A stretch of DNA of 64,000 nt from contig CAIZGX010000058.1 of assembly GCA_903932685.1 (NCBI GenBank), forward strand, positions 634 to 64,633, in the 5' to 3' direction. Positions 1,986-60,668 of this stretch are shown here, one piece after another. The notes beneath the pieces were generated by a model that saw only the letters and a list, made by a program, of their open reading frames with translations, had not been told where the DNA came from and made no database searches. The first letter of the stretch is position 1. Each line of letters begins with the position of its first letter. The DNA is from an uncultured Bacteroidota bacterium. GTDB lineage: Bacteria; Bacteroidota; Bacteroidia; Flavobacteriales_D; Sanyastnellaceae. The translations under genes were made by a program, and so were the position numbers.

Positions 1986-3035
1986 ATGAAAAAACTGTTA
2001 CTCAGCGTTTTGATTGTAGCGCCTTTATGTTTGAGCGCACAAATTACTATAACCAAAAATAATTTGCCACTAGGTGGAGATATTCTTGCTCAAGAGAATG
2101 CAACTTATGTCGGAACATTCGATGAAGGAGATACAGGTCCGAATCACGTTTGGAATTTCGACGAAACGAATCTTACGTTAACTGGGAATATTCAGCAAAC
2201 GGAGTGTATAGATATTTCCTCAACACCTTTCACATACCAAATATTTTTCAATAGCCCTTTTGATTCTGAACACAATTCAGATTTTGCCGTAGGCCTGGCT
2301 TCAATAGGTGGAAGCACGCAAGGACTTCCTGTTACGTTGGAAGATATTTACTCGTATTACCAAAACAACAACAGCCGTTACGCTATTGTGGGAGTAGGCG
2401 CTACGGTAAGCGGTATTCCAATTCCGCAACAAGCGAGTCCTGTAGATGTTGTCTACGATTATCCAGTTGCTTTCGGAGACTTGCATACAAGCGTTTCAGA
2501 GCAGGTGATTCAAATTCCTACATTGGGATATAGAAAGACCAATCAGACGCGTGTAAATGAAGTAGACGGTTGGGGTACGGTGAATTACTTCGGAACCTCT
2601 TACGATGTAATTCGTGTTAAAACAACAATCAATGCTGCAGACTCGATTTATGTAGATCTGTTGGGTTTTGGATTTCAGTTCGATCGCCCCGAAACGATTG
2701 AGTATAAATTTTTAGTACAGGAGTTTATGGTTCCTCTGGTTCAAGTGAATTATACCGCGGGAGCGAATTCAGGTGTGTTGGTGGCATCTCAACCCATTGG
2801 TGTTATCGAGTCTAGCGCGCCACAAGTGGCAGTTTTTCCTAATCCAACAACAGATTACCTAACGGTTCAATGGAAAAACGCGAATAATGTCGCTTATGCT
2901 ATTTTCAATATGGAAGGGAAACGTGTTTTAGAGGGAAGCCTTTCAGACAATTCTCAAATTGAAGTGAACGCACTTGCAAACGGGTTGTATTTTTTGAAGA
3001 CAGCATCAAGTGAAACCTATTTCTTAAAGAAATAA
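1986..3035 (+). CDS. secreted protein with T9SS C-terminal sorting domain
   Basis: The internal ATG at 1986 gives the signal peptide MKKLLLSVLIVAPLCLSAQ. The C-terminal ~80 aa (VFPNPTTDYLTVQW...GLYFLKT) is typical of Por/T9SS CTDs. The longer ORF from 1869 has no signal peptide. Confidence 0.7.
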   Translation: MKKLLLSVLIVAPLCLSAQITITKNNLPLGGDILAQENATYVGTFDEGDTGPNHVWNFDETNLTLTGNIQQTECIDISSTPFTYQIFFNSPFDSEHNSDFAVGLASIGGSTQGLPVTLEDIYSYYQNNNSRYAIVGVGATVSGIPIPQQASPVDVVYDYPVAFGDLHTSVSEQVIQIPTLGYRKTNQTRVNEVDGWGTVNYFGTSYDVIRVKTTINAADSIYVDLLGFGFQFDRPETIEYKFLVQEFMVPLVQVNYTAGANSGVLVASQPIGVIESSAPQVAVFPNPTTDYLTVQWKNANNVAYAIFNMEGKRVLEGSLSDNSQIEVNALANGLYFLKTASSETYFLKK

Positions 3036-3053
3036 TAGAAGTTTATTGAAATG

Positions 3054-3081
3054 AAAAAGGGAGCAGGCTGCTCCCTTTTTT
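3054..3081. terminator. bidirectional rho-independent terminator
   Basis: Stem GGGAGCA (3059-3065) pairs with TGCTCCC (3069-3075). It is flanked by an A-run (3054-3058) and a T-run (3076-3081) and lies between convergent genes. Confidence 0.6.
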
Positions 3082-3096
3082 AATACTCGAAAATTC

Positions 3097-4233
3097 TTAA
3101 TAGCAAGTGAATTCCGTATTACTCGGATTCGGATCGCAGAAGTTTAAATCAAATGTGTAGATGCCGTTCATTAGCGCATTAATGTTACTGGTTCCGTTAC
3201 CAGCCTCCAACGGAATGTTCAACACATATGCACTAGCACGTGAAGCGAATAGACCTAATCCACCTACAACATTCGTATAACTTGGACGCTCTTGAATAAT
3301 ACCGGTCACAGGGTTGTTCACGTTAATGTATGTCTTGAGCTCATCGTTAGCTAATCCCATGCGCAATTCGAAAGCACGGGTTTTATTTCCGTCGTATGTT
3401 CCCACTTCGCGACGAATGTGCGTGTCTGTTATGAGGTTCGTGCCTATATACGAGAAGAAAGGTTCAGCATTGAACGTGAGGTTGTAGTAACCTGAATTCA
3501 AATCAATGTCGTCTGCATTAAAGGTTCCTATTTTCCAGTCAATGAATTTGTCAGTTGAAGAGACCAATTGAGTTAATGCGTTATCTGAATATAGGTTTTC
3601 AGTGTAATAGAAGCGCAATGCCAAATCGTAAATCTCAGCATTGTCAATCGGAGTCCAACGTATGGAAACATTGTCGCGATAATCGATTGCTCCTGTTACG
3701 GTGTTTATCGAGGCGAACGACATCCCTAAATTGGTTTGTGGACTTTGGAAAAAGACATTGGCTGAAGGAATAACGTTCGTCCATGCGAATACATCAGGAC
3801 GAGAAACGAAATCGGCAACGAGTTTATAGGTAGCGTTGGGATTAAGTCCGGAAGGAGTCGCAAAGTAATAAACGGTTTGAGCCGGCCCGTAAAACATTCC
3901 GTTCACGTCTTTGTTGTTGACGGTAATTGGCGAAAGGTTATGTGTTGCAATTGGATTAGGATTGCCTGTAACGTACTCGTCAATGCGCAGAGAAGTAAAT
4001 TCTTCCCACTTGTATTCCGAACTGTCGCGAATCATGGCGTAATCGTTCAAATTGCCATCACCAAGAAAGGTCTTATTTACTTTAACAAATTGGGTGTCGG
4101 CCTGTGGATCTAGCAATCCGAAAACAATTGTAGTACTCGCGTATGGAGCGGTAAGGTCAACATCTGTTTCGCAAGAAGAAAAAACGGATAACGAAATTGC
4201 CGCAATTGCCGACAATGAAATAATCTTATTCAT
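3097..4233 (-). CDS. hypothetical lipoprotein
   Basis: 378-aa ORF with a lipoprotein-type signal (MNKIISLSAIAAISLSVFSSC). No catalytic motif recognised. Confidence 0.6.
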   Translation of the reverse strand: MNKIISLSAIAAISLSVFSSCETDVDLTAPYASTTIVFGLLDPQADTQFVKVNKTFLGDGNLNDYAMIRDSSEYKWEEFTSLRIDEYVTGNPNPIATHNLSPITVNNKDVNGMFYGPAQTVYYFATPSGLNPNATYKLVADFVSRPDVFAWTNVIPSANVFFQSPQTNLGMSFASINTVTGAIDYRDNVSIRWTPIDNAEIYDLALRFYYTENLYSDNALTQLVSSTDKFIDWKIGTFNADDIDLNSGYYNLTFNAEPFFSYIGTNLITDTHIRREVGTYDGNKTRAFELRMGLANDELKTYINVNNPVTGIIQERPSYTNVVGGLGLFASRASAYVLNIPLEAGNGTSNINALMNGIYTFDLNFCDPNPSNTEFTCY

Positions 4234-19610: not shown

Positions 19611-19636
19611 AGCCCTCTTCGGAGGGCTTTTTTTTG
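19611..19636 (+). terminator. rho-independent terminator after rplT
   Basis: AGCCCTC-TTCG-GAGGGCT hairpin (19611-19628) followed by a T-run. Confidence 0.7.
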
Positions 19637-19644
19637 CTTCGCAA

Positions 19645-19752
19645 AAATGTCTGCGACTAATGTGCAAGCACGAATGCCGATGGCTAATGTCTACGACGAA
19701 TGTCTGCGACTAATGTGCAAGCACGAATGCCGTTGGCGAATGTCTTTCAGAC
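19645..19752 (+). repeat. mini-hairpin string, NAAT-linker family (8 hairpins, 53-bp higher-order repeat)
   Basis: The sequence reads GTC-TGC-GAC TAAT GTGC-AA-GCAC GAAT GCC-GAT-GGC TAAT GTC-TAC-GAC GAAT, then the block restarts at 19702 and ends with GTCT-TTC-AGAC at 19742-19752. Confidence 0.8.
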
Positions 19753-19825
19753 TATACGTCTTTTGACGAATAATGCATAACTCATTTGGAAGCTTCAGTG
19801 TGGTATGTATATATTTATTTATTGA

Positions 19826-20488
19826 ATGAAAAACACTTTTCTCTTTATGTCGCTGATGCTTTTTTCCACATTCGGATTTGCGCAGGACACCCTTCAAACA
19901 CCTTTGGAATTCGTTCAGGAAATGCCAACATACCCTGGAGGGCAAGATGCTATGTTTGAAGTGATCTTTGATCACTTAGTCTACCCAGAATATGAGAAAT
20001 CGATGAACATTGAGGGCACCGTTTTAATTCAATTTATTATTGAAAAAGATGGTACACCAACGAACTTCAAGGTTTTTCGTGGTGTTACGGATGGCTCGGG
20101 ATTGGACAGTGCGGCGCTTATGGCATGTAAACAACTGGGGAAGTTTAACCCGGGAAAACAGGACGATATTCCTCAACGAGTTTATTCTGGAATGCCAATA
20201 AAGTTTTCTTTGGCCGACGACGAAGAGCCAACGGAGGAAAGATTGAGTAAAGCAGATTTGAAAGAGATAAAAAAAGATGCGAAATACATCTGCGATATGA
20301 TGTCTCAAATAGAGGAAGCGCGAAGAGCCAACGACCAACTTAAAATTGATAGTTTAACTGCAGAGTTTGACGCAGTAGCAGCAGTCCTTCAAAAGAAATA
20401 CCCTAAAAACAGCGTTAGAGAAGATTATCTCGAAGACCTAGTTAAACCTTGCCTTGAAGAAGCCAGGAAAGCCGCAATGGGGCAGTAG
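19826..20488 (+). CDS. secreted TonB C-terminal domain protein with one C-terminal two-Cys helical module
   Basis: Signal peptide plus a TonB_C-like domain (PTYPGGQDAMFEVIFDHLVYPEYEKSMNIEGTVLIQFIIEKDGT). The C-terminal module is LKEIKKDAKYIC...KKYPKNS...LVKPCLEEA. Confidence 0.7.
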   Translation: MKNTFLFMSLMLFSTFGFAQDTLQTPLEFVQEMPTYPGGQDAMFEVIFDHLVYPEYEKSMNIEGTVLIQFIIEKDGTPTNFKVFRGVTDGSGLDSAALMACKQLGKFNPGKQDDIPQRVYSGMPIKFSLADDEEPTEERLSKADLKEIKKDAKYICDMMSQIEEARRANDQLKIDSLTAEFDAVAAVLQKKYPKNSVREDYLEDLVKPCLEEARKAAMGQ

Positions 20489-21474: not shown

Positions 21475-21596
21475 TTCATCCTTCAAAGAAGGTCATCACG
21501 AAGTGTCATCACAATGTGTTGTGTCATCACGACCTGTCGTGTCATCGGCTACGCCGTCATCCAGCTTCGCTGGTAATCACAACTTGTTGTGTAGTT
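21475..21596 (+). repeat. mini-hairpin string, TCAT-linker (GTCATC core) family, array A
   Basis: Perfect GTCATC at 21492, 21505, 21523, 21541 and 21556. Degenerate copies are TTCATC (21475), GTAATC (21573) and GTAGTT (21591). All 7 intervening words are self-complementary. Confidence 0.85.
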
Positions 21597-43463: not shown

Positions 43464-44532
43464 TAACACGACACGAAACTTTGGACTCGATTTATTTCGA
43501 GCGTTGGCCATTGTGTTGGTTGTGTTGTCTCACGGAAAATTTTTGTTGAATGGAACGGTTCTAGAGAATTTTCCGTTCGTGAAAATGCTCGACGGCGTTG
43601 ATTTGTTTTTCGTGTTAAGCGGATTTTTAATTGGCGGAATTTTATTGAAGTCCTCTTCTGAAGGATTGAATTGGCGAGGCATTGCGCACTTTTGGAAGAG
43701 AAGATGGTTGCGCACTTTGCCGAATTATTATTTGATCTTGTTCTTGAATTTCATTTTCATTTCTTGTGGAATTATTTCCGGAGACTTAACTGTTTTCGGT
43801 TGGAAGTTTATTGTATTCCTTCAAAATTTCACAAAGCCGCTCATTGGATTTTTCTGGGAGTCGTGGAGCTTGGCAGTTGAGGAGTGGTTCTACATTTTTA
43901 CTCCAGTTATGCTTTGGGGACTACTGAAAGTGTTTCGATTGAAATGGGCTTATCTCATTGCAACGCTTGTAATGATTGCTGTTCCCTTGATCTATCGCGC
44001 TTATTCCTTTGATTCGAAGCTCGACGATTTCTGGTTCGATGTGCAGGTCCGAAAGATTGTGGTCTTTCGACTCGATGCTATTGCATTCGGATTGTTGCTC
44101 GCCTGGATTTGTTCTTTCCATAAAGATCTTTGGGACAAGTGGAAAAACGTAGGGCTTGTTTTGGGTTTGGCAATAGTTTTATTCTTGTTGAATAACAGCG
44201 CTTCCAACGCAACTTTTTATCGTCAAGTATTTTATTTCAGCATAACACCTTTCGCTATAGCACTTATCCTTCCTTGGTTTGAAGGGATTACTTCTTCATG
44301 GAAGCGCTTGGTAAGTGCCGTGACGCACATCAGTAAGATTTCGTATTCGATGTATTTAATTAACCTTGCGCTCGTTGCCCAAGTCATCGGATTGAATTTT
44401 CCTGTTCAAGGAAATGCAGATGGGATAATGAAGTACGTTGCCTATTGGTTTATTGTGATTACAGTCTCTTCGGCGCTTTACTACTTTGTGGAAAGACCGA
44501 TTCTTCGGTGGAGAGATGACGCTTCGCGATGA
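43456..44532 (+). CDS. acyltransferase family 3 membrane protein (OafA-like)
   Basis: N-terminal GLDLFRALAIVLVVLSH and about 10 TM helices. The last five codons and the stop lie inside hairpin array B. Confidence 0.75.
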   Translation: MNNNTTRNFGLDLFRALAIVLVVLSHGKFLLNGTVLENFPFVKMLDGVDLFFVLSGFLIGGILLKSSSEGLNWRGIAHFWKRRWLRTLPNYYLILFLNFIFISCGIISGDLTVFGWKFIVFLQNFTKPLIGFFWESWSLAVEEWFYIFTPVMLWGLLKVFRLKWAYLIATLVMIAVPLIYRAYSFDSKLDDFWFDVQVRKIVVFRLDAIAFGLLLAWICSFHKDLWDKWKNVGLVLGLAIVLFLLNNSASNATFYRQVFYFSITPFAIALILPWFEGITSSWKRLVSAVTHISKISYSMYLINLALVAQVIGLNFPVQGNADGIMKYVAYWFIVITVSSALYYFVERPILRWRDDASR

Positions 44533-44631
44533 CGCAACGCGTTGCGATGACACAACACGACGTGATGACAATCTGCGATTGATGACCACTTCGTGGATGA
44601 CGGCGAAGCCGATGACCGCGCAGCGGATTAA
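44515..44631 (-). repeat. mini-hairpin string, GTCATC family, array B (inverted orientation)
   Basis: GATGAC on the + strand at 44515, 44528, 44546, 44564, 44581, 44596 and 44611, with a degenerate GATTAA at 44626. Six of 7 words are self-complementary. Confidence 0.85.
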
Positions 44632-45647
44632 TGAATGTGGTTTGCGATGTTACGTGCGATGGAAGGACCTTCGTAGATGAAGCCCGTGTATACTTGAACA
44701 AGGGAAGCACCTGCATCTATTTTTTCTTGCGCATTTTGTGAAGTGTGAATTCCTCCAACGCCAATGATTGGAAATGCGCCGTTCGATTTTGAATGCAAAT
44801 AGCGAATCACATCGGTTGAACGCGCACGCACAGGAGCTCCGCTCAATCCGCCCATTCCAATGCTTTGAATGGTTTGTGTACTCGTTTGCAAATTCTCTCT
44901 TGAAATGGTTGTGTTCGTTGCAATGACTCCCGCAATTTTTGTTTGAAGAACAATTTCAACAATGTCATTCAATTGATCGTCTGTTAAATCCGGAGCAATT
45001 TTTAAAAAGATTGGACGCGGTTTTGGGAAGGTGTTATTTGTTTCAGCAAGAGCAGAAAGAATTTTCATTAATGGCTCTTTCTCTTGCAACTCGCGTAAAC
45101 CCGGTGTATTCGGAGAGCTTACATTCACCACGAAATAATCTACACAATCGTGAAGGGCATTCAAACAAATTAAATAATCACTCAACGCATCTTCATTCGG
45201 AGTGATTTTATTCTTTCCGATATTTCCTCCAACAATAATATTTGATTTTCGTTTTCTCAAGCGTACTGCAGCGTCTTCAACCCCACCGTTATTAAATCCC
45301 ATGCGATTAATCAACCCATTATCTAACGGAAGTCTGAATAATCGTGGTTTGTCATTTCCAGGTTGTGCCTTCGGAGTAAGCGTTCCGATTTCCACATGTC
45401 CGAATCCTAACAATGCCAACTCATCTATCCAACGCGCATCCTTATCAAACCCAGCAGCCAATCCCACCTTATTGGGAAATTCAATTCCTGCTACAACAAT
45501 CTTGTTTTCTTTCGCTTTGAAAATTGATTTTAAAATCATTTTTCCTCCAGGCATTCTTGAAGAAAATTTCAATAAATCCATGGCCAAGTAATGCGCCTTC
45601 TCCGGAGAAAAAAGAAAAAAGAAAGGTTTAATCAGAAGCTTATACAT
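44628..45647 (-). CDS. pyrD: dihydroorotate dehydrogenase (quinone), class 2
   Basis: [18 protein letters not shown] and GVGGI motifs. Start taken at [11 protein letters not shown] (45647). Confidence 0.9.
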
Positions 45648-45661
45648 GCTGCAAAAATACA

Positions 45662-45892
45662 GCATCTCATCCATCAATCGTAGATTGTCATCACCTTCGG
45701 TGTCATCCGCTCCGCGGTCATCGGCTTCGCCGTCATCAATCGCAGATTGTCATCACCTTCGGTGTCATCCGCTCCGCGGTCATCGGCTTCGCCGTCATCA
45801 ATCGCAGATTGTCATCACCTTCGGTGTCATCGCAACGCGTTGCGTCATCGCGAAGCGTCATCCGCTCCGCGGTCATCCACGAAGTGGTAATG
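45662..45892 (+). repeat. mini-hairpin string, GTCATC family, array C (largest, with a 62-bp higher-order repeat)
   Basis: 13 perfect GTCATC cores between 45687 and 45877. The 14 intervening or flanking words are all self-complementary. Blocks 45687-45748 and 45749-45810 are identical. Confidence 0.9.
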
Positions 45893-45995: not shown

Positions 45996-46547
45996 ATGAT
46001 TACATTTTTTGGAAAAAAGAAAATCTCAGCAGAACGCGCAGCAACGCTGTTCGTGAATACACTGTTGGATTCAGTGGAAGGTGGTTTTTCGGAAGTTGCT
46101 GGATTTATCCGCGATACGCCTGAGCTAGTTAGTACTCCGAAAATTAGTGATGAGGAATACGGTAAATTCTTAATGATTGCCATTGTAGGAAACTTCAATT
46201 ACTTAAATGAGCATTTCCGCGATGGTGAAGGCGATTTAATTGTTCAGCATTGTATAGATCAGTTCGCACCTGTTTTCGATTTGTCTCCAATTGCCTTCCA
46301 AGCCAAATTGAACGACTACAAGAAGTTCATGGCTCATGTTAATTTCCCTTCGAAGAATATTTTGTACAGCATGTCTAAGGCTGTATTCTTCAAATATGAA
46401 TTGAATCAATACCAAGACGAGTATTTCAGAAGCATGAATACGCCGAATCCAATTTTCTTGAAGAGCTTGGATGAAGTGATGCGTAATTTCATTTGGGACT
46501 GGGAAGCATTCTGCGACAAATACAAGGTTCAGTTAGGCGGAGCCTAA
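45996..46547 (+). CDS. hypothetical cytoplasmic protein (183 aa)
   Basis: ORF only, apparently helical, with no signal peptide or motif recognised. It is bracketed by arrays C and D. Confidence 0.5.
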   Translation: MITFFGKKKISAERAATLFVNTLLDSVEGGFSEVAGFIRDTPELVSTPKISDEEYGKFLMIAIVGNFNYLNEHFRDGEGDLIVQHCIDQFAPVFDLSPIAFQAKLNDYKKFMAHVNFPSKNILYSMSKAVFFKYELNQYQDEYFRSMNTPNPIFLKSLDEVMRNFIWDWEAFCDKYKVQLGGA

Positions 46548-46656
46548 CACGCGTGGCGATGACAATCTTCGATTGATGACGGCAAGGCCGATGACACAAC
46601 ACGTTGTGATGACACTTTCAGTGATGACCTCTTCGCGTATGACACTTCGTGATTAA
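46548..46656 (-). repeat. mini-hairpin string, GTCATC family, array D (inverted orientation)
   Basis: Opens with the palindrome CACGCGTG (46548-46555). GATGAC at 46558, 46575, 46590, 46608 and 46623, then TATGAC (46638) and GATTAA (46651). Confidence 0.8.
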
Positions 46657-54802: not shown

Positions 54803-55636
54803 TTGAAAATTCGATTAACACTATGGGTTTGTCTATTATCAATGTCTGCGGATGCCCAGTATTTCGTTGATATTTTTTCGTTCAATAGACAGGCTTACAA
54901 CATCCCTTCAGGCGCCCAAACGAGTGACCTTTTTGTCAATGCGTTTATTCCAAAGGTTCTGAAAAACGGCAACACCGTTTTTGTTCGTGCACATTATGAA
55001 AAGCTTTCGATGCAAAGAGATTCATTGTCTGCCGATTATTCTTCGATCACACTTCCTATTGGCATGCAAGTTCAATTGAAGAATCCGAAATGGAAATTCA
55101 CAGGCTTGATTATTCCGAAAATAGCCGGTGCGGATTTGAGCGCGGCGTTTTCAGATGTTTTTCAAATTGGAGCGTATTCATTATTCACGGTAACAGAGTC
55201 TGAAAAATTTCGATACAAATTCGGATTGTATTACAATCGAGAATTCTTCGGGAATTTCTTTGTGCCGCTCGTTGGAGTTGATTGGAAGGTGTCTGATCGT
55301 TTTTCCGTATTCGGCACACTGCCTCAGAGCTTTAAGGCTTCCTATGCGATATTTCCTTCTCGCGTGAATGCAGGATTGGCCTTTCGCTCCATGACAAGAT
55401 CATTTCGTGGTGAAGACAACAACACTTTTGTTCGTTACAATGAATTGCAATTCAAAGCGTTTTTCGATTTTTATGTAACTCCAAAGAATGTAGTCTTTGT
55501 CGAAGGCGGATATTTCCTCGGGAAAACACCGCTACTTTATAACAATACCGACACCAAGAATCCTGTTAATTCTAATTTATTGAAGGAAGGGATAGCATTC
55601 CCTTTGATTAATGCTGGATGGGCGTTAAGATTCTAA
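54803..55636 (+). CDS. putative outer-membrane beta-barrel protein
   Basis: TTG start gives the signal peptide MKIRLTLWVCLLSMSADAQ. Alternating amphipathic strands, with a C-terminal aromatic residue (ALRF). Confidence 0.5.
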   Translation: MKIRLTLWVCLLSMSADAQYFVDIFSFNRQAYNIPSGAQTSDLFVNAFIPKVLKNGNTVFVRAHYEKLSMQRDSLSADYSSITLPIGMQVQLKNPKWKFTGLIIPKIAGADLSAAFSDVFQIGAYSLFTVTESEKFRYKFGLYYNREFFGNFFVPLVGVDWKVSDRFSVFGTLPQSFKASYAIFPSRVNAGLAFRSMTRSFRGEDNNTFVRYNELQFKAFFDFYVTPKNVVFVEGGYFLGKTPLLYNNTDTKNPVNSNLLKEGIAFPLINAGWALRF

Positions 55637-57921
55637 AAAAGTTCGGTTAAAATTCGAAGGGTTTCTTTCGACGCGTCTTTCGGATGCAACGCTGTGTCTG
55701 AAATACCCGAGATTACCCGTGTAACATCGTGGTCTATTTTTCCTTCAACAAACCAATCGGAACCTTTCGCAACTGTAATGTAAACCGAATAGTTGTGGTG
55801 CATGGTTCCAGGGCGTTCACCAATGATATGTAAGACACATTTTTTATTTGTTGAAATGGAATCGCCAAAGAGCTGTTCGCCGCAGCGGTAGCCCGCACGA
55901 ACTCTTCCATGTTGAATGAATAAATTGTTTTTGCTCAACGTGTATTTGTCCTTCAATAATACATTCAGTTCTTTAACATAAGGTTCCAAATGTCCTTGGT
56001 CAAGAATAGAAGAAACATTCAATCCGTCAGAAACTACAACCTGAATATCGGGAGTTTTATTCTTCCATTTCGATTTTAAAATTTCCAAAGCGTAGATGCT
56101 ATCGCGTGAAAGTTGTTCGCCCGATTGCGGATGGTAGATGTAATCTTTTCGGTTTGAAGAAAGAGTGGCCAGCGCTATTCCTTCAGTAAGTGATTTCTTA
56201 AAATTCGGAGGTGTTTCTTCCCAAAGACATTTCTTAGCATCTGCATAAAGTAGGCGAATTTCTTGCTCAAGGTCAGGATTCATTTCCCAATAATCCTTTC
56301 CGAATCCTTTCGCAATTGGAACACCTCGTTCTCGAACTCGTTCAATGCATGCAAGACCTTCCGAATAAATTTCGTCCATTGGCTGCGTATCACCTTTCAA
56401 TTTTCGATATTGGTAATACATCCAAACAGGATCTCCAAAGTGATTTGAAGGTTTGTTGTTTTCATCAATAATTTCCATCTGCTTGAAAAACGCCCACATG
56501 GCATCATTGATCTTGTATCCAAACTTTTCGCGAATGCGCAGGTGATCGCTAAACGATGTGGTTAAGTAACTCAACATAGGATCGTTCTTCGTTGGAAGAG
56601 CCATGAGATAACCCGGATTGGCTGGCATGATTTGATCAATGCACCAGTCTAAATCATCGAGTGAAACATCCATGTGCAGCGTGGTGCAAATGTCCAAGCC
56701 AATCATGAGTCCGTGTAATTTCCCCATCACTAAATCTTCCAAGCAACAACGAACCAATTGTTCTTTCGTTCTGAAAACTTCCGGACCAATGAATCCAGCA
56801 ACATCATTCAAATGCACCCAAGACTCTTCGTTGAGTTGTTGTTTTAATCCGCGCCACAGGCCGTATTTACGCGACTCGTGAATAAGCATGTCGAAGCCTT
56901 CTCCGTGCCCGTTCGTTTCATCAGCACCTTGTCCGGTTTCAGCATAGAGTCCGAATTTACCTTTGCGCTGTGAGGCGTATTTCTTAAGTTTTTCAATGGT
57001 TACATCGAAGGTCTGATTTGCTTTCACAGTGCCGGCAATACTCTGAAACCACATGCCGGTTTGACCGTTGTAAGTCTTTTCTACTTCAGCTTGAATATCG
57101 ATGTGCGCCAACACAGAATGTGAAAGCGTATTTTCTAGTTTGAAGGTGGTAAGCAAATCGTATAAAGCCATTTCAATTTTCGCAACCGATTCCGGATTGC
57201 TTGAAACAGGATTGTTACCTAGAACCAAATCACCAACACTGTAGCTCCACGCGTCGAACACCTGCCAAACAATGTCTTCAATGTTATCGGTGGGAGAGTT
57301 GGGTTGAACGCGAGCGCTCATGTATCCCTTCGAACCCATTTGAGTTCCGGGAAGCGGATGGAAAATTTTGCTGCTAATTGCGATGAGCTCTTGGTTCGAC
57401 ATGAGCTTCACAACACAAGCAATGATGTCGCTTGTTAAGTAGGGAAGTAGGTCATGAATCTCAGTTTCAGAGGACTTCAAGAGAAGTTCTTTAAAATCGT
57501 TCATGCGAAGTTTACCAATGGCTTTTCCAGATTCTGTTTCTTGAAAAGCGCGTGTAGATTGTTCAATGAATTCCGATTGTTCATCGGTGAAAACAGAATG
57601 TTTGCGAATGTTGTCAAGGCTGGTTTCAGCAAGAAGCATGCGTGCCTTCAACCGATCTTCATCGCTTGCGGCAGCTATTCCAGCAATTTCATCGCCTTCT
57701 TTGAATTCATTGGCAGCGCCAAGTAATTGTCGATACAGGGTAACGTCGAAACTTCCTTTTTGACGTTGAATGTATTGAAACAAATCTTCACCAACGAGGG
57801 GAGAAGGGACTTCAATTTTTTCGAAATGAAAATGATCAGACTCCCCGATAACTTTCCCTGAAACAAGTGTGTACGAGACTGTCGCCATTCCTAGTTTGCT
57901 TAAAAAATCGCGACGCTCCAT
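55633..57921 (-). CDS. eutBC: fused ethanolamine ammonia-lyase large and small subunits (EutB-EutC) with a twin-arginine-like N-terminal extension
   Basis: Residues ~45-500 align by eye to EutB (EGDEIAGIAAASDEDR, LYAETGQG, AGFIGPE, MGKLHGLMIGLD). Residues ~520-762 align to EutC (VVVSDGLN, HIIGERPG). The N-terminus is MERRDFLSKLG. Confidence 0.85.
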   Translation of the reverse strand: MERRDFLSKLGMATVSYTLVSGKVIGESDHFHFEKIEVPSPLVGEDLFQYIQRQKGSFDVTLYRQLLGAANEFKEGDEIAGIAAASDEDRLKARMLLAETSLDNIRKHSVFTDEQSEFIEQSTRAFQETESGKAIGKLRMNDFKELLLKSSETEIHDLLPYLTSDIIACVVKLMSNQELIAISSKIFHPLPGTQMGSKGYMSARVQPNSPTDNIEDIVWQVFDAWSYSVGDLVLGNNPVSSNPESVAKIEMALYDLLTTFKLENTLSHSVLAHIDIQAEVEKTYNGQTGMWFQSIAGTVKANQTFDVTIEKLKKYASQRKGKFGLYAETGQGADETNGHGEGFDMLIHESRKYGLWRGLKQQLNEESWVHLNDVAGFIGPEVFRTKEQLVRCCLEDLVMGKLHGLMIGLDICTTLHMDVSLDDLDWCIDQIMPANPGYLMALPTKNDPMLSYLTTSFSDHLRIREKFGYKINDAMWAFFKQMEIIDENNKPSNHFGDPVWMYYQYRKLKGDTQPMDEIYSEGLACIERVRERGVPIAKGFGKDYWEMNPDLEQEIRLLYADAKKCLWEETPPNFKKSLTEGIALATLSSNRKDYIYHPQSGEQLSRDSIYALEILKSKWKNKTPDIQVVVSDGLNVSSILDQGHLEPYVKELNVLLKDKYTLSKNNLFIQHGRVRAGYRCGEQLFGDSISTNKKCVLHIIGERPGTMHHNYSVYITVAKGSDWFVEGKIDHDVTRVISGISDTALHPKDASKETLRILTELF

Positions 57922-58048
57922 ACTTGCTTTGTTTCTCTAAATTTAAAAATTAATTTCTTCCCTCTCTTACCTCAGGTCGAAAGATATTTCGACCCTATAT
58001 CTTCCCCTCTCTTCCCTTTTATCAATGCAAATCTAACGAACTCTCGCC

Positions 58049-58196
58049 CTCATCACAACGTGTGGTGTCATCCGCTCCGCGGTCATCGGCTTCGCCGTCA
58101 TCAATCTCCGATTGTCATCACCTTCGGTGTCATCGGCTTTGCCGTCATCCACGAAGTGGTCATCAATCTCCGATTGTCATCCGCTCCGCGGTATTG
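58049..58196 (+). repeat. mini-hairpin string, GTCATC family, array E
   Basis: Perfect GTCATC at 58067, 58082, 58097, 58114, 58129, 58144, 58159 and 58176. Degenerate copies are CTCATC (58049) and GTATTG (58191). Eight of 9 words are self-complementary. Confidence 0.85.
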
Positions 58197-58210
58197 TGTA
58201 TTTTTGATCC

Positions 58211-58798
58211 ATGGAATTCAAAAAAGGAGATCACGTTCGTTTTTTAAACGATACCGGAGAGGGAGTAATCGTCGGTTTCCCTCAAGCCGATACCGCTACG
58301 GTAGAGGATAGCAGTGGCTTTCCATTCGATCACCCACTTCGAGAATTAGTAAAAATTGAAAATTCAAAACACGAGTTTTCACAATACAATCAAGTGCAGC
58401 CGAATACGCGCGAGATGCTCGATCGGAATTTGGACGCGCATGCAGTGAAAGCGGCATCGAAAGACTTCAAGAACAGATACAAAGAGCGCGCGGCGAATGA
58501 CTTTCCACACAACGCCGATTTGTTCGAGGTTGATTTGCACATTCATGAATTGCTCGACAATTATGAGCGCATGACGAACGGAGAAATCGTAACCATTCAA
58601 ATGGAACACTTCGAGCGTATGCTGGCCATTGCAGAAAAGAAAAAAGTTAAGAAGGTTATTTTCATTCATGGAGTGGGGCAGGGAGTCTTGCGCGCAGAGA
58701 TTCGTTCATTCATCAAAAGCTATTATCCACAATGTGAATTCCTCGATGGGAATTACCAGAAATACGGACACGGCGCAACAGAAGTTAGATTCAGATAA
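58211..58798 (+). CDS. Smr domain protein with KOW-like N-terminus
   Basis: C-terminal Smr pattern (VDLHIHEL...VIFIHGVGQGVLR). N-terminal FKKGDHVRFLNDTGEGVIVGF. Confidence 0.75.
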   Translation: MEFKKGDHVRFLNDTGEGVIVGFPQADTATVEDSSGFPFDHPLRELVKIENSKHEFSQYNQVQPNTREMLDRNLDAHAVKAASKDFKNRYKERAANDFPHNADLFEVDLHIHELLDNYERMTNGEIVTIQMEHFERMLAIAEKKKVKKVIFIHGVGQGVLRAEIRSFIKSYYPQCEFLDGNYQKYGHGATEVRFR

Positions 58799-60430: not shown

Positions 60431-60507
60431 GGCATTGTAGCTCAACTGGATAGAGCATCGCACTACGGATGCGAAGGTTTGGGGTTCGAATCCCTACAGT
60501 GTCACCA
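60431..60507 (+). tRNA. tRNA-Arg (anticodon ACG)
   Basis: Hand-folded cloverleaf. Acceptor GGCATTG/CAGTGTC, D arm GCTC/GAGC, anticodon stem TCGCA/TGCGA with loop CTACGGA, T arm TGGGG-TTCGAAT-CCCTA, and an encoded CCA. 77 nt. Confidence 0.9.
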
Positions 60508-60557: not shown

Positions 60558-60668
60558 GTCTCATTCTCATTCTGTTTCTCTAACTCATTCAGATTCTCTT
60601 TCCCATTCTGTTTCTCATACTCATTCAGATTCTCTTTCCCATTCTGTTTCTCATACTCATTCTGAATT
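60558..60668. repeat. 36-bp tandem repeat (2 full copies plus partial copies on both sides)
   Basis: ACTCATTCAGATTCTCTTTCCCATTCTGTTTCTCAT at 60583-60618 is repeated exactly at 60619-60654. There are partial copies at 60558-60582 and 60655-60668. Confidence 0.85.

What the first reader, a model, noticed from the sequence alone, without database searches (positions are those of the whole stretch)
58049..58196. Array E: a GTCATC-family array in the divergent region between eutBC and the Smr gene, ending 15 nt before the Smr start codon
Perfect cores occur at 58067, 58082, 58097, 58114, 58129, 58144, 58159 and 58176. Degenerate copies are CTCATC at 58049 and GTATTG at 58191. The words, in order, are ACAACGTGTGGT (one mismatch), CGC-TCC-GCG, GGC-TTC-GCC, AATC-TCC-GATT, ACC-TTC-GGT, GGC-TTT-GCC, CAC-GAA-GTG, AATC-TCC-GATT and CGC-TCC-GCG. 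The three-word block GGCTTCGCC / AATCnCnGATT / ACCTTCGGT has the same order as in array C 12 kb away. The only differences are loop substitutions (GCA to TCC, TTC to TTT). That pattern indicates copying between loci followed by structure-preserving drift. The array occupies most of the 289-nt divergent control region, so any promoter for either gene must lie within or right next to it.
Basis: seen in the sequence. Interest (0 to 1): 0.7.

Follow-up and report, generated by a model that had tools for sequence, protein, structure and literature searches.

The report
Hypervariable arrays of DNA mini-hairpins
Array E is one copy of a dispersed repeat family found in some freshwater Flavobacteriales: tandem strings of tiny hairpin-forming DNA words joined by the constant hexamer GTCATC, which change copy number between strains and look like self-expanding structural DNA rather than a dedicated switch for the eutBC and Smr genes.

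Summary
Array E (58049-58196) is one of five GTCATC arrays in the window. The same family occurs in Flavobacteriales and Crocinitomicaceae MAGs and in freshwater metagenome contigs. I found it in no phage, plasmid or Rfam family.

Each unit is a TCAT linker plus a C...G-closed palindrome of 7-14 nt. Across 88 word types the stems covary almost perfectly and almost never use G-U pairs. Three quarters of the loops are GNA or its complement, which is the very stable DNA mini-hairpin motif.

Arrays vary within a species: E has 5, 8 or 12 units next to an identical Smr protein. Arrays sit next to promoters and stop codons. One lies in frame inside fdhD, where protein length varies from 254 to 294 aa. 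Relatives with 59-91% identical Smr have no array upstream.

A dedicated regulatory role is not supported.

Best reading: a lineage-specific, expansion-prone mini-hairpin minisatellite acting at the DNA level. How it spreads between loci, and whether it has any host function, remain open.

The parts
58041..58048 (+). Array head motif CTCTCGCC. It resembles the head ..CTCGC[GC]CAGC-GTCATC of single-armed arrays at other loci.
   Evidence: L003, L172, L263.
58049..58066 (+). First, degenerate unit: CTCATC plus ACAACGTGTGGT, a quasi-palindrome with one mismatch. It is conserved in all strain variants.
58067..58190 (+). Eight perfect units of GTCATC plus word: CGCTCCGCG, GGCTTCGCC, AATCTCCGATT, ACCTTCGGT, GGCTTTGCC, CACGAAGTG, AATCTCCGATT, CGCTCCGCG. 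Each word plus the flanking C and G forms a 4-5 bp hairpin with a 3-nt loop, and the linker is TCAT.
   Evidence: With DNA parameters the minimum-energy fold is nine beads-on-a-string hairpins, z = -4.4.
58191..58196 (+). Terminal degenerate core GTATTG (array tail).
   Evidence: It is conserved in all strain variants.
58199..58206 (+). Predicted Bacteroidetes -7 promoter box TATTTTTG (TAnnTTTG), 4 nt before the Smr ATG at 58211. This is a leaderless-type arrangement.
   Evidence: TAnnTTTG-N4-ATG occurs 5 times in the window, each at the start of a long ORF; shuffles give a mean of 1.0 and a maximum of 4. The consensus is taken from PMC7366714.
58028..58035 (-). Predicted -7 box TAGATTTG pointing towards eutBC, 13 nt from the array head. 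It implies a leader of about 100 nt.
   Evidence: This is a motif match only; no transcription start data exist.
55633..57921 (-). Fused ethanolamine ammonia-lyase gene, EutB plus EutC domains.
58211..58798 (+). Smr-domain protein of 195 aa.
21475..21590 (+). Array A of the same family, between the convergent genes for a TonB_C-domain protein and a GH20 enzyme.
44515..44631 (-). Array B. Its head overlaps the pyrD stop codon. Its last GATGAC supplies the TGA stop of the Acyl_transf_3 gene on the other strand.
45665..45892 (+). Array C, 13 units including a 62-nt four-word block repeated 2.6 times. Its head abuts the pyrD -7 box (TATTTTTG-CAGC-ATG, ATG at 45647 on the minus strand).
46548..46651 (-). 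Array D, lying after the stop codon of the Peptidase_S41 gene.

Best explanation
Array E is one locus of a dispersed, lineage-specific family of non-coding tandem repeats. It is a minisatellite whose unit is a 4-nt linker (TCAT, inside the constant GTCATC) plus a very short C...G-closed palindrome. The centre of that palindrome is usually C-GNA-G or its complement, which is the exceptionally stable DNA mini-hairpin motif.

Shown. The family exists at many loci and in several Flavobacteriales genomes. Hairpin potential is kept by compensatory changes with strict Watson-Crick pairing. Copy number and word content differ between strains that share identical flanking proteins. Chimeric words mark crossovers inside units. 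Arrays stop at sequences that look functional, namely -7 boxes, stop codons and the reading frame.

Inferred. Whenever the region is single-stranded (replication, transcription, or negative supercoiling between divergent promoters), the units fold one by one. Folded units and the repeated hexamer cause misaligned pairing. Whole units or multi-unit blocks are then gained and lost by slippage or unequal recombination. Template switching within a hairpin, or selection at the level of the repeat, restores perfect stems. The array expands until it reaches DNA under selection.

For the neighbouring genes the array is simply the DNA upstream of two outward-facing core promoters. Any effect on eutBC or Smr expression is secondary and not required, because close relatives lack the array. 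How arrays are seeded at new loci is not explained. Conserved heads and a conserved 13-nt centre in two-armed arrays hint at a small mobile seed.
For: Not chance, and dispersed: five arrays in 64 kb. The same architecture is in MAGs L003, L028, L057, L072, L109 and L118 and in 13 metagenome contigs.

Hairpins maintained: 263 of 278 word tokens and 74 of 88 word types are perfect hairpins. Among distinct word types, 97% (9-nt words) and 100% (11-nt words) of cells are paired, with 31 and 28 double-sided changes; 0 of 500 shuffles reach the observed covariation score.

DNA level rather than RNA level: only 2 G-U pairs in 217 cells, and the loop-closing pair is C-G in 31 of 33 and 15 of 17 types. 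GNA or TNC loops make up 195 of 263 tokens. Their token ranking GAA > GGA > GCA > GTA equals the published Tm order of d(GCGNAGC); among word types the order is GAA (21), GCA (8), GGA (7), GTA (6). Only GNA triloops form that mini-hairpin, and the RNA version is far less stable. GNA lies on either strand within one array. With DNA parameters the minimum-energy fold is exactly nine separate hairpins (z = -4.4 and -3.6), whereas with RNA parameters it is not.

Hypervariable: E has 5, 8 or 12 units with the chimeras ACCTTCGCC and GGCTTCGGT. C has 13, 9, about 8 or 6 units, and B has 7 or 9. Multi-word blocks are tandemly duplicated.

Not gene-specific: Smr orthologues lack the array. Arrays occur at 3' ends, at 5' ends, and in frame in fdhD, where protein lengths run from 254 to 294 aa in 5-aa steps. 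In a two-armed array in L251, both arms are antisense to the flanking genes.
Against: No experiment or rate measurement supports slippage. Copy-number differences come from short-read metagenome assemblies, which can collapse higher-order repeats; differences in word content cannot be explained that way.

Sites B, C and D still carry arrays in relatives at 82-88% DNA identity. That persistence, together with the near-perfect maintenance of stems, could reflect a host function.

Simple slippage does not explain array polarity, the conserved head, the conserved centre GATGAC-GCTCCGCGAAGCG-GTCATC found at several unrelated loci, or spread to new loci.

In the three arrays lying between co-directional genes, the GTCATC strand is the sense strand (3 of 3; too few to test).
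Confidence: 0.55

Rival explanations
1. Enzyme-driven mobile element of the REP/RAYT or IS200/IS605 type. An HUH-type or similar single-strand DNA enzyme would recognise a small hairpin plus the adjacent constant GTCATC, cut there, and copy or transpose units. This would seed new loci and build polar arrays from a head.
For: The constant short motif sits at the foot of each hairpin, as GTAG does in REPs. The hairpins are of the DNA-stable type. Conserved heads and a conserved 25-nt centre with 6-nt inverted ends occur at unrelated loci. Arrays have polarity. Arrays are absent from close relatives (L279, L293) but present in more distant MAGs, which fits gain or loss of a driver.
Against: No transposase-like gene lies next to any array examined. 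No target-site duplication was seen at the pyrD empty-versus-filled comparison. REP hairpins are longer and have a fixed sequence. No whole genome could be searched.
Confidence: 0.15
2. Cis-acting double-stranded or extruded DNA element with a host function at promoters. It could be an array of binding sites for a nucleoid or regulatory protein that reads GTCATC every 13-18 bp. It could also be a supercoil-absorbing insulator between divergent promoters.
For: Array tails abut -7 boxes at many loci: E, L057, L229, L264, L176, L186 and L220. E fills the space between two outward-facing -7 boxes. Arrays persist at the same sites in diverged relatives. Mini-hairpins are known in promoters and priming sites, for example phage N4 and ssiA.
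Against: The spacing of the only constant motif varies (13, 15, 17 or 18 bp), so sites rotate around the helix. Half of the arrays are at gene 3' ends or inside a gene. Copy number is unconstrained within a species. Orthologous promoters work without arrays. Stems of 4-5 bp are short for cruciform extrusion (general knowledge).
Confidence: 0.15
3. RNA-level element. The array would be transcribed within UTRs and act as a string of RNA hairpins, as a 3'-end stabiliser or terminator cluster, a 5'-leader structure, or a protein sponge that binds at GUCAUC.
For: Arrays A, B and D start right after a stop codon in the sense orientation. Three of three arrays between co-directional genes are in the sense orientation. 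Clusters of hairpins have been proposed as terminators (PMC8355165). REPs stabilise mRNA (general knowledge).
Against: At E the predicted Smr promoter lies downstream of the array, so the array is not in the Smr mRNA. G-U pairs are almost absent. Loops are of the DNA-stable GNA class on either strand, and the RNA counterpart is weak. With RNA parameters the fold is not beads-on-a-string and z is only about -2.8. The genome has ordinary hairpin-plus-U terminators, for example at 19614-19640. Both arms of the two-armed array in L251 are antisense to the neighbouring genes. No Rfam match was found.
Confidence: 0.1
4. Artefact, chance pattern or coding sequence. This would mean an assembly error, a random cluster, or a translated 5-residue repeat.
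For: ORFs of 61 and 83 aa can be drawn through the array. Gene callers do call ORFs across such arrays. Most hits of a four-core pattern in other phyla are coding repeats.
Against: An identical array E was recovered in four independent assemblies made with different assemblers. Enrichment is 18 matches against 0.01 expected. Units of 15 and 17 nt break any reading frame. Palindromy of every word is not a coding property.
Confidence: 0.01

Closest known systems
REP / BIME elements (repetitive extragenic palindromes) and their RAYT transposases
   Same: Both are dispersed and mostly extragenic. Both are hairpin-forming, with a short constant motif at the foot of the hairpin. Both are clustered, variable between strains, and often found after stop codons.
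   Different: REP palindromes are 20-40 nt with a conserved sequence and usually occur in alternating orientation. Here the palindromes are 7-14 nt, variable and covarying. The constant part is the linker. Units are head to tail. No RAYT gene was seen.
Bacterial minisatellites / VNTRs such as MIRU
   Same: Both are tandem intergenic units. Copy number is polymorphic within a species. Whole blocks of units are duplicated or deleted.
   Different: MIRU units are 40-100 bp with a fixed sequence. Here units are 13-18 bp with a vocabulary of at least 88 interchangeable hairpin words.
Short tandem intergenic heptamers (cyanobacterial STRR; TAACTGA repeats, MacGregor 2015, PMC4679880)
   Same: Both are lineage-restricted short tandem intergenic repeats. 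Both often end a few nucleotides before start codons. Both also occur in some Bacteroidetes.
   Different: The heptamer repeats are plain direct repeats of one unit with no hairpin component.
DNA mini-hairpins d(GCGNAGC) (Hirao et al.; review PMC13037366)
   Same: The central C-GNA-G (or its complement) matches the motif. The token ranking GAA > GGA > GCA > GTA follows the measured stability order.
   Different: Known natural cases are single hairpins in phage origins, ssiA and phage N4 promoters. They are not chromosomal arrays of tens of units.
Rickettsia palindromic elements (RPE)
   Same: Both are palindromic repeats that can sit in frame inside protein-coding genes without destroying them. 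Here the example is fdhD. The comparison rests on general knowledge.
   Different: RPEs are single 100-150 bp elements, not hypervariable arrays of mini-hairpins.
TIGR arrays (Tas systems), including their stem-loop variant (PMC12045711)
   Same: Both are tandem arrays with very short repeats. In the stem-loop variant the palindromes are variable but consistently present.
   Different: TIGR units are about 36 nt with two 8-12 nt spacers and box C/D motifs, and they lie next to a Nop-domain tas gene. Here there is no room for spacers (3-nt loops, 4-nt linker), no box D, and no tas gene, and the arrays are scattered.

Membership tests
REP/BIME | Dispersed, multi-copy, extragenic location | tested here: met
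   Five arrays in 64 kb, all intergenic. One intragenic exception was found elsewhere, in fdhD.
REP/BIME | Unit is a 20-40 nt imperfect palindrome of conserved sequence with a 5' GTAG-type tetranucleotide | tested here: not met
   Palindromes are 7-14 nt, with 88 different sequences. The conserved part is the GTCATC linker.
REP/BIME | Associated RAYT (Y1 HUH transposase) gene in the genome | not testable with these tools
   No whole genome was available. No such gene was seen among the genes flanking the arrays.
CRISPR array | Repeats of 23-50 nt, unique spacers of similar size, and cas genes nearby | tested here: not met
   The repeat is 6 nt. The 'spacers' are 7-14 nt palindromes drawn from a shared vocabulary. 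The flanking genes are eutBC and Smr.
TIGR-Tas array | Two alternating 8-12 nt repeats with 9-nt spacers (36-nt unit), or stem-loop units carrying box C/D and two spacers | tested here: not met
   The period is 13-18 nt, with one constant hexamer, 3-nt loops and no CUGA box.
TIGR-Tas array | Adjacent Nop-domain tas gene | tested here: not met
   Pfam hits on the neighbours are EutB/EutC, Smr, TonB_C, GH20, Acyl_transf_3, DHO_dh and Peptidase_S41. The 183-aa protein without a Pfam hit is not array-linked in relatives.
Minisatellite / VNTR | Head-to-tail tandem units with copy-number polymorphism between strains | tested here: met
   E has 5, 8 or 12 units. C has 13, 9, about 8 or 6. B has 7 or 9. 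All were compared next to identical flanking proteins.
DNA mini-hairpin motif d(C-GNA-G) | GNA triloop closed by a C-G pair on at least one strand | tested here: met
   195 of 263 perfect tokens have GNA or TNC loops, and 42 of 62 triloop types do, against 12.5% expected. The closing pair is C-G in 31 of 33 and 15 of 17 types. The defining rule is from PMC13037366.
DNA mini-hairpin motif d(C-GNA-G) | The hairpins actually form in the cell | not testable with these tools
   Only in-silico folding was possible.
Intrinsic terminator / hairpin-cluster terminator | Lies downstream of a stop codon in the transcribed strand; G+C-rich hairpin followed by a U tract | tested here: not met
   E lies upstream of both neighbouring genes. 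No terminator-like site was found in the array. Arrays A, B and D do follow stop codons but lack T runs.
Any Rfam RNA family | Covariance-model match at or near the gathering score | tested here: not met
   Only a tRNA was found in the window. The best hit in 57880-58300 scores 11 bits against a gathering score of 55.
Conserved cis-regulatory element of eutBC or Smr | Present upstream of the orthologous genes in related genomes | tested here: not met
   Smr orthologues at 91, 89, 69 and 59% identity have 60-110 nt upstream regions without arrays.

The most novel reading that the evidence does not exclude
The arrays may be the product and substrate of an undiscovered system that acts on single-stranded DNA hairpins, for example an HUH-type nuclease, a primase-polymerase or a hairpin-reading polymerase. 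Such a system would add or copy 'GTCATC + mini-hairpin' units directionally from a conserved head. It would give these bacteria hundreds of programmable hairpin sites, used for priming, for transcription initiation or insulation, or as decoys for hairpin-promoter phage polymerases. The polarity, the conserved heads and centres, the strict Watson-Crick palindromy and the DNA-specific GNA loops are all compatible with this. None of my results excludes it.
Probability: 0.15. Interest if true: 0.85.

Novelty: new variant of a known kind. Interest (0 to 1): 0.6.

Why it matters
If confirmed, this would be a natural case in which the very stable DNA mini-hairpin motif is used, or propagates itself, genome-wide. 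The repeat architecture is a constant linker with variable, covarying hairpins, the inverse of REP and CRISPR logic.

It gives a testable system for asking whether short DNA hairpins form in living cells and drive repeat instability. It supplies highly polymorphic strain markers for abundant freshwater Flavobacteriales. It warns annotators, because gene callers draw false ORFs through these arrays and misplace starts (pyrD was called at 303, 348 and 365 aa).

It also points to repeat-mediated genome change: an inversion of pyrD bounded by two inverted arrays, and a length-variable linker inside FdhD.

For the two genes named in the finding, the practical message is that their promoters probably lie at the two edges of the array and do not need it.

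Tried and rejected
1. Known RNA family. Rfam at gathering threshold on the whole window, and at E-value threshold on 57880-58300, gave nothing.

2. Sigma-70 promoters or terminators inside the array. None were found; the scan does not cover Bacteroidetes promoters.

3. Phage or plasmid origin. None of 25 viral pattern hits has an array. There is no blastn match in the phage or plasmid collections.

4. Genome-wide census. Only six true loci were recovered, so the taxonomic range is a lower bound.

5. A conserved regulatory element of Smr. Rejected after looking at four tiers of orthologues.

6. Association with the uncharacterised 183-aa protein that lies between arrays C and D (three of the five arrays cluster there). 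Its family is small and restricted to Flavobacteriales, but homologues at 74, 58 and 43% identity have no arrays within 6-10 kb. Rejected.

7. TIGR-Tas arrays. Considered because of the resemblance to their stem-loop variant. Rejected on unit anatomy and gene context.

8. The centre motif GCTCCGCGAAGCG of two-armed arrays. It is absent from the window.

9. Look-up of the PyrD protein with my corrected start found no record.

10. Literature searches for the hexamer, mini-hairpin arrays and tandem hairpins found no description of this family.

Full report
**1. The observation**

Reading 57850-58400 and locating every GTCATC reproduces the finding exactly. Perfect cores lie at 58067, 58082, 58097, 58114, 58129, 58144, 58159 and 58176. 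A degenerate CTCATC lies at 58049 and GTATTG at 58191. The nine listed words lie between them.

GTCATC-N9-GTCATC occurs 18 times in the window against 0.01 expected. 38 of the 50 GTCATC/GATGAC hexamers sit in five arrays:
- A: 21475-21590, plus strand
- B: 44515-44631, minus strand
- C: 45665-45892, plus strand
- D: 46548-46651, minus strand
- E: the array in the finding

The neighbours of E are a fused EutB-EutC gene (55633-57921, minus strand) and an Smr-domain gene (58211-58798, plus strand). The array takes 148 of the 289 intergenic nucleotides.

**2. Anatomy of a unit**

Each word is a small palindrome, and the C and G of the flanking hexamers add one more pair. The real unit is therefore a 4-nt linker TCAT plus a hairpin of 3-6 bp with a 2-4 nt loop.

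With DNA energy parameters the minimum-energy fold of E is exactly nine separate hairpins on either strand (z = -4.4 and -3.6). With RNA parameters the best fold is a different, long-range structure, and z is only -2.8 and -2.9.

**3. The family elsewhere**

A pattern scan of one genome per species was mostly noise from coding repeats. It still returned true arrays (all words palindromic) from five MAGs labelled Flavobacteriales or Crocinitomicaceae, at 42-44% G+C. A metagenome scan added 13 contigs. None of 25 viral hits carries an array. Array E has no match in the plasmid or phage collections. No Rfam family matches. Literature searches found no description of the family.

**4. The vocabulary**

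Over 47 distinct arrays there are 278 word tokens of 88 types. 263 tokens (95%) and 74 types (84%) are perfect hairpins.

Treating distinct word types as an alignment gives the following:
- 9-nt words are 97% paired, with 31 double-sided (compensatory) changes.
- 11-nt words are 100% paired, with 28 double-sided changes.
- No shuffle out of 500 reaches the observed covariation, and slid registers fall to 20-50% pairing.
- Only 2 G-U pairs occur in 217 cells.
- The loop-closing pair is C-G in 31 of 33 and 15 of 17 types.

Loop counts are GAA 73, TTC 51, TCC 40, GCA 19 and GTA 8. GNA or its complement therefore accounts for 195 of 263 tokens, and for 42 of 62 triloop types, against 12.5% expected.

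The review of DNA mini-hairpins (PMC13037366) states three relevant facts. Of all 64 GCNNNGC heptamers, only GNA loops form the mini-hairpin. The Tm order is A 76 > G 73 > C 71 > T 70 °C. The RNA version is much weaker (39 °C for r(GCGAAAGC)). My token frequencies follow that same order (124 > 41 > 21 > 9). Among word types the order is GAA 21, GCA 8, GGA 7, GTA 6.

Strict Watson-Crick palindromy, GNA on either strand within one array, and a DNA-specific stability rule all point to DNA rather than RNA as the level at which the hairpins matter. This last step is an inference.

**5. Variation between strains**

Seven contigs encode a Smr protein identical to the window's:
- One has 5 units (L121).
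- Five have 8 units; four of these are identical to the window, and one has a different loop.
- One has 12 units (L122, GCA_947491445.1).

The first and last units are constant and the interior changes. Non-palindromic chimeras appear (ACCTTCGCC, GGCTTCGGT). These are halves of ACCTTCGGT and GGCTTCGCC joined at the shared CTTCG, which marks misaligned recombination.

Around an identical 183-aa protein, array C has 13, 9, about 8 or 6 units, B has 7 or 9, and D has 5-6. Blocks of 3-4 words are tandemly duplicated in many arrays.

Short-read assembly could collapse such blocks, which is a caveat. It cannot create different words. The identical array E was also recovered from four separate samples.

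**6. Relation to genes**

Arrays A, B and D lie between convergent genes, with their heads right after a stop codon. One GATGAC of B supplies the TGA stop of the gene on the other strand. Arrays C and E lie between divergent genes.

Where an array tail faces a gene start, it abuts a Bacteroidetes -7 box (TAnnTTTG; consensus cited from PMC7366714). At E the sequence is TATTTTTG-ATCC-ATG. The same TAnnTTTG-N4-ATG arrangement occurs at five long-ORF starts in the window, against a shuffle mean of 1.0 and maximum of 4, and after arrays in L057, L229, L264, L176, L186 and L220.

A leftward TAGATTTG lies 13 nt from E's head. E therefore fills the space between two outward-facing core promoters. The -33 motif is reported as not identifiable in Flavobacterium, which would make the upstream DNA replaceable.

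**7. Is E a regulator of its neighbours?**

Smr orthologues at 91% (L279-282), 89% (L273), 69% (L274, L275) and 59% (L276-278) identity all have short ordinary upstream regions. These 6-10 kb loci contain no array at all. In the 91% relative, a three-gene MBOAT/DHHW/GDSL cassette separates eutBC from Smr.

The array is thus not a conserved control element. In contrast, sites B, C and D still carry arrays, with different words, in relatives at 82-88% DNA identity. An array-less relative at 74% protein identity (L293) shows the empty site: the pyrD stop runs directly into the sequence that follows array C's tail.

**8. Arrays are not confined to non-coding DNA**

In L172 and L263 an array lies in frame inside a genuine fdhD gene (Pfam FdhD-NarQ, E = 8e-60). 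It sits in the linker after the CGICG cysteine loop, a stretch that does not align with E. coli FdhD 4PDE.

The 120 best homologues (at least 78% identity) have lengths of 254, 259, 264 and so on up to 294 aa. The variable part consists of DDERSSMTLR and DDRGA repeats. These are 17+13-nt and 15-nt GATGAC units read in frame. The words there are still perfect palindromes. A promoter-specific function does not predict this. A property intrinsic to the repeat does.

**9. Higher-order features**

Many arrays elsewhere are two-armed. The arms point outward from a conserved centre GATGAC-GCTCCGCGAAGCG-GTCATC, which is found at several unrelated loci but not in the window. In L251 both arms are antisense to the flanking convergent genes, so orientation is not set by transcription of the neighbours.

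Single-armed arrays start with ..CTCGC[GC]CAGC-GTCATC, and E has the related CTCTCGCC-CTCATC. Heads, centres and polarity are not explained by slippage alone. They are the main reason to keep an enzyme-driven or mobile-seed model alive.

In the window lineage pyrD is inverted relative to L268 and L293, and it is bounded by the inverted arrays B and C. This suggests, but does not prove, recombination between arrays.

**10. Word order**

E shares a run of four stem classes (CGC, GGC, AATC, ACC) with the 62-nt period of array C. P is 0.056 by shuffling E's order and 0.012 for random draws. E also shares GGC, CAC, AATC with array B. Both AATC words of E carry a TCC loop, where B and C have GCA, which indicates homogenisation within an array. 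Copying between loci is plausible but only moderately supported by this test.

**11. Candidates examined and set aside**

- The 183-aa protein between C and D has no Pfam or NCBIfam match and belongs to a family of about 160 proteins restricted to Flavobacteriales. It is not accompanied by arrays in relatives.
- TIGR-Tas arrays have 36-nt units with two spacers, box C/D motifs and a Nop-domain gene, so they do not fit.
- REP/BIME, MIRU, the TAACTGA heptamers and hairpin-cluster terminators each share some traits. Each fails on unit anatomy.

**12. Verdict**

- Observation: confirmed.
- Interpretation: partly supported.
- Best explanation (0.55): a lineage-specific, expansion-prone minisatellite of DNA mini-hairpins. 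It occupies whatever DNA selection leaves free, including the space between the eutBC and Smr promoters.
- Rivals: an enzyme-driven mobile element (0.15), a promoter-proximal DNA element with a host function (0.15), an RNA hairpin array (0.10), and artefact (0.01).
- Novelty: I found no prior description, and I rate it a new variant of a known kind (dispersed palindromic or tandem repeats).
- Interest: 0.6.

Noticed in passing
L172:3235-3302 (fdhD 2856-3650, minus strand); L263:825-907; proteins P0121-P0240: A GTCATC array lies in frame inside the fdhD gene and encodes DDERSSMTLR and DDRGA repeats after the CGICG loop. Homologues range from 254 to 294 aa in 5-aa steps, so this is a hypervariable intragenic array kept in frame.
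   Followed up: yes
window 19646-19755: A second kind of mini-hairpin array has a [T/G]AAT linker instead of TCAT. Its units include GTCTGCGAC, GTGCAAGCAC, GCCGATGGC and GTCTACGAC. It lies between an ordinary hairpin-plus-T8 terminator (19614-19640) and the gene starting at 19826.
   Followed up: partly
window 4233(-), 6827(-), 27915(+), 45647(-), 58211(+): Five genes have a -7 box TAnnTTTG exactly 4 nt before the ATG. This implies leaderless or nearly leaderless mRNAs, which are reported as rare in Bacteroides (3.7% of 5' UTRs under 10 nt).
   Followed up: partly
window 44515-45892 versus L268:1-1664 and L293:4914-6555: pyrD is inverted in the window lineage relative to L268 and to the array-less L293, and it is bounded by the oppositely oriented arrays B and C. 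This may be an inversion by recombination between arrays, or for L268 a misassembly through shared words.
   Followed up: partly
L283, L284, L286 (2174-2467); pyrD calls in L283-L290: Gene callers place a 97-aa ORF straight through array C and call pyrD at 303, 348 or 365 aa. In the window ORF listing likewise extends pyrD to a TTG at 45677, although a -7 box plus ATG at 45647 is the likelier start. The arrays cause annotation artefacts.
   Followed up: partly
L279:1-5000, L280 and L281:1-5000, L282:259-630, compared with window 55633-58211: The eutBC-Smr junction is a rearrangement hot spot. A close relative has an MBOAT/DHHW/GDSL-LysM cassette between the two genes. Two contigs lack eutBC there, and another has a different 370-nt upstream region.
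   Followed up: partly
window 57935-58020 (minus-strand leader of eutBC): An 8-bp hairpin GGTCGAAA-GATA-TTTCGACC (57975-57994) is flanked by two purine-rich direct repeats (AAGAGAGGGGAAGA and AAGAGAGGGAAGAA on the minus strand) in the predicted eutBC leader of about 100 nt. No Rfam match was found.
   Followed up: no
window 60559-60664: A 36-nt unit (TCTCTTTCCCATTCTGTTTCTCATACTCATTCAGAT) is repeated 2.9 times at 94% identity. It lies just downstream of a tRNA gene (60431-60504) and its terminator-like hairpin. It does not form hairpins and is unrelated to the GTCATC family.
   Followed up: no
window 46532-46548: A 7-bp hairpin GTTAGGC-TCC-GCCTAAC (GGA loop on the plus strand) lies at the tail of array D. 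It covers the last codons and the stop of the 183-aa gene. Its arms happen to fit the integron attC core and inverse-core consensus, which is probably coincidence.
   Followed up: no
window 45996-46547: The 183-aa protein has no Pfam or NCBIfam match. It belongs to a small family of about 160 members found only in Flavobacteriales MAGs, including Putridiphycobacter and Salibacteraceae. Its function is unknown.
   Followed up: partly
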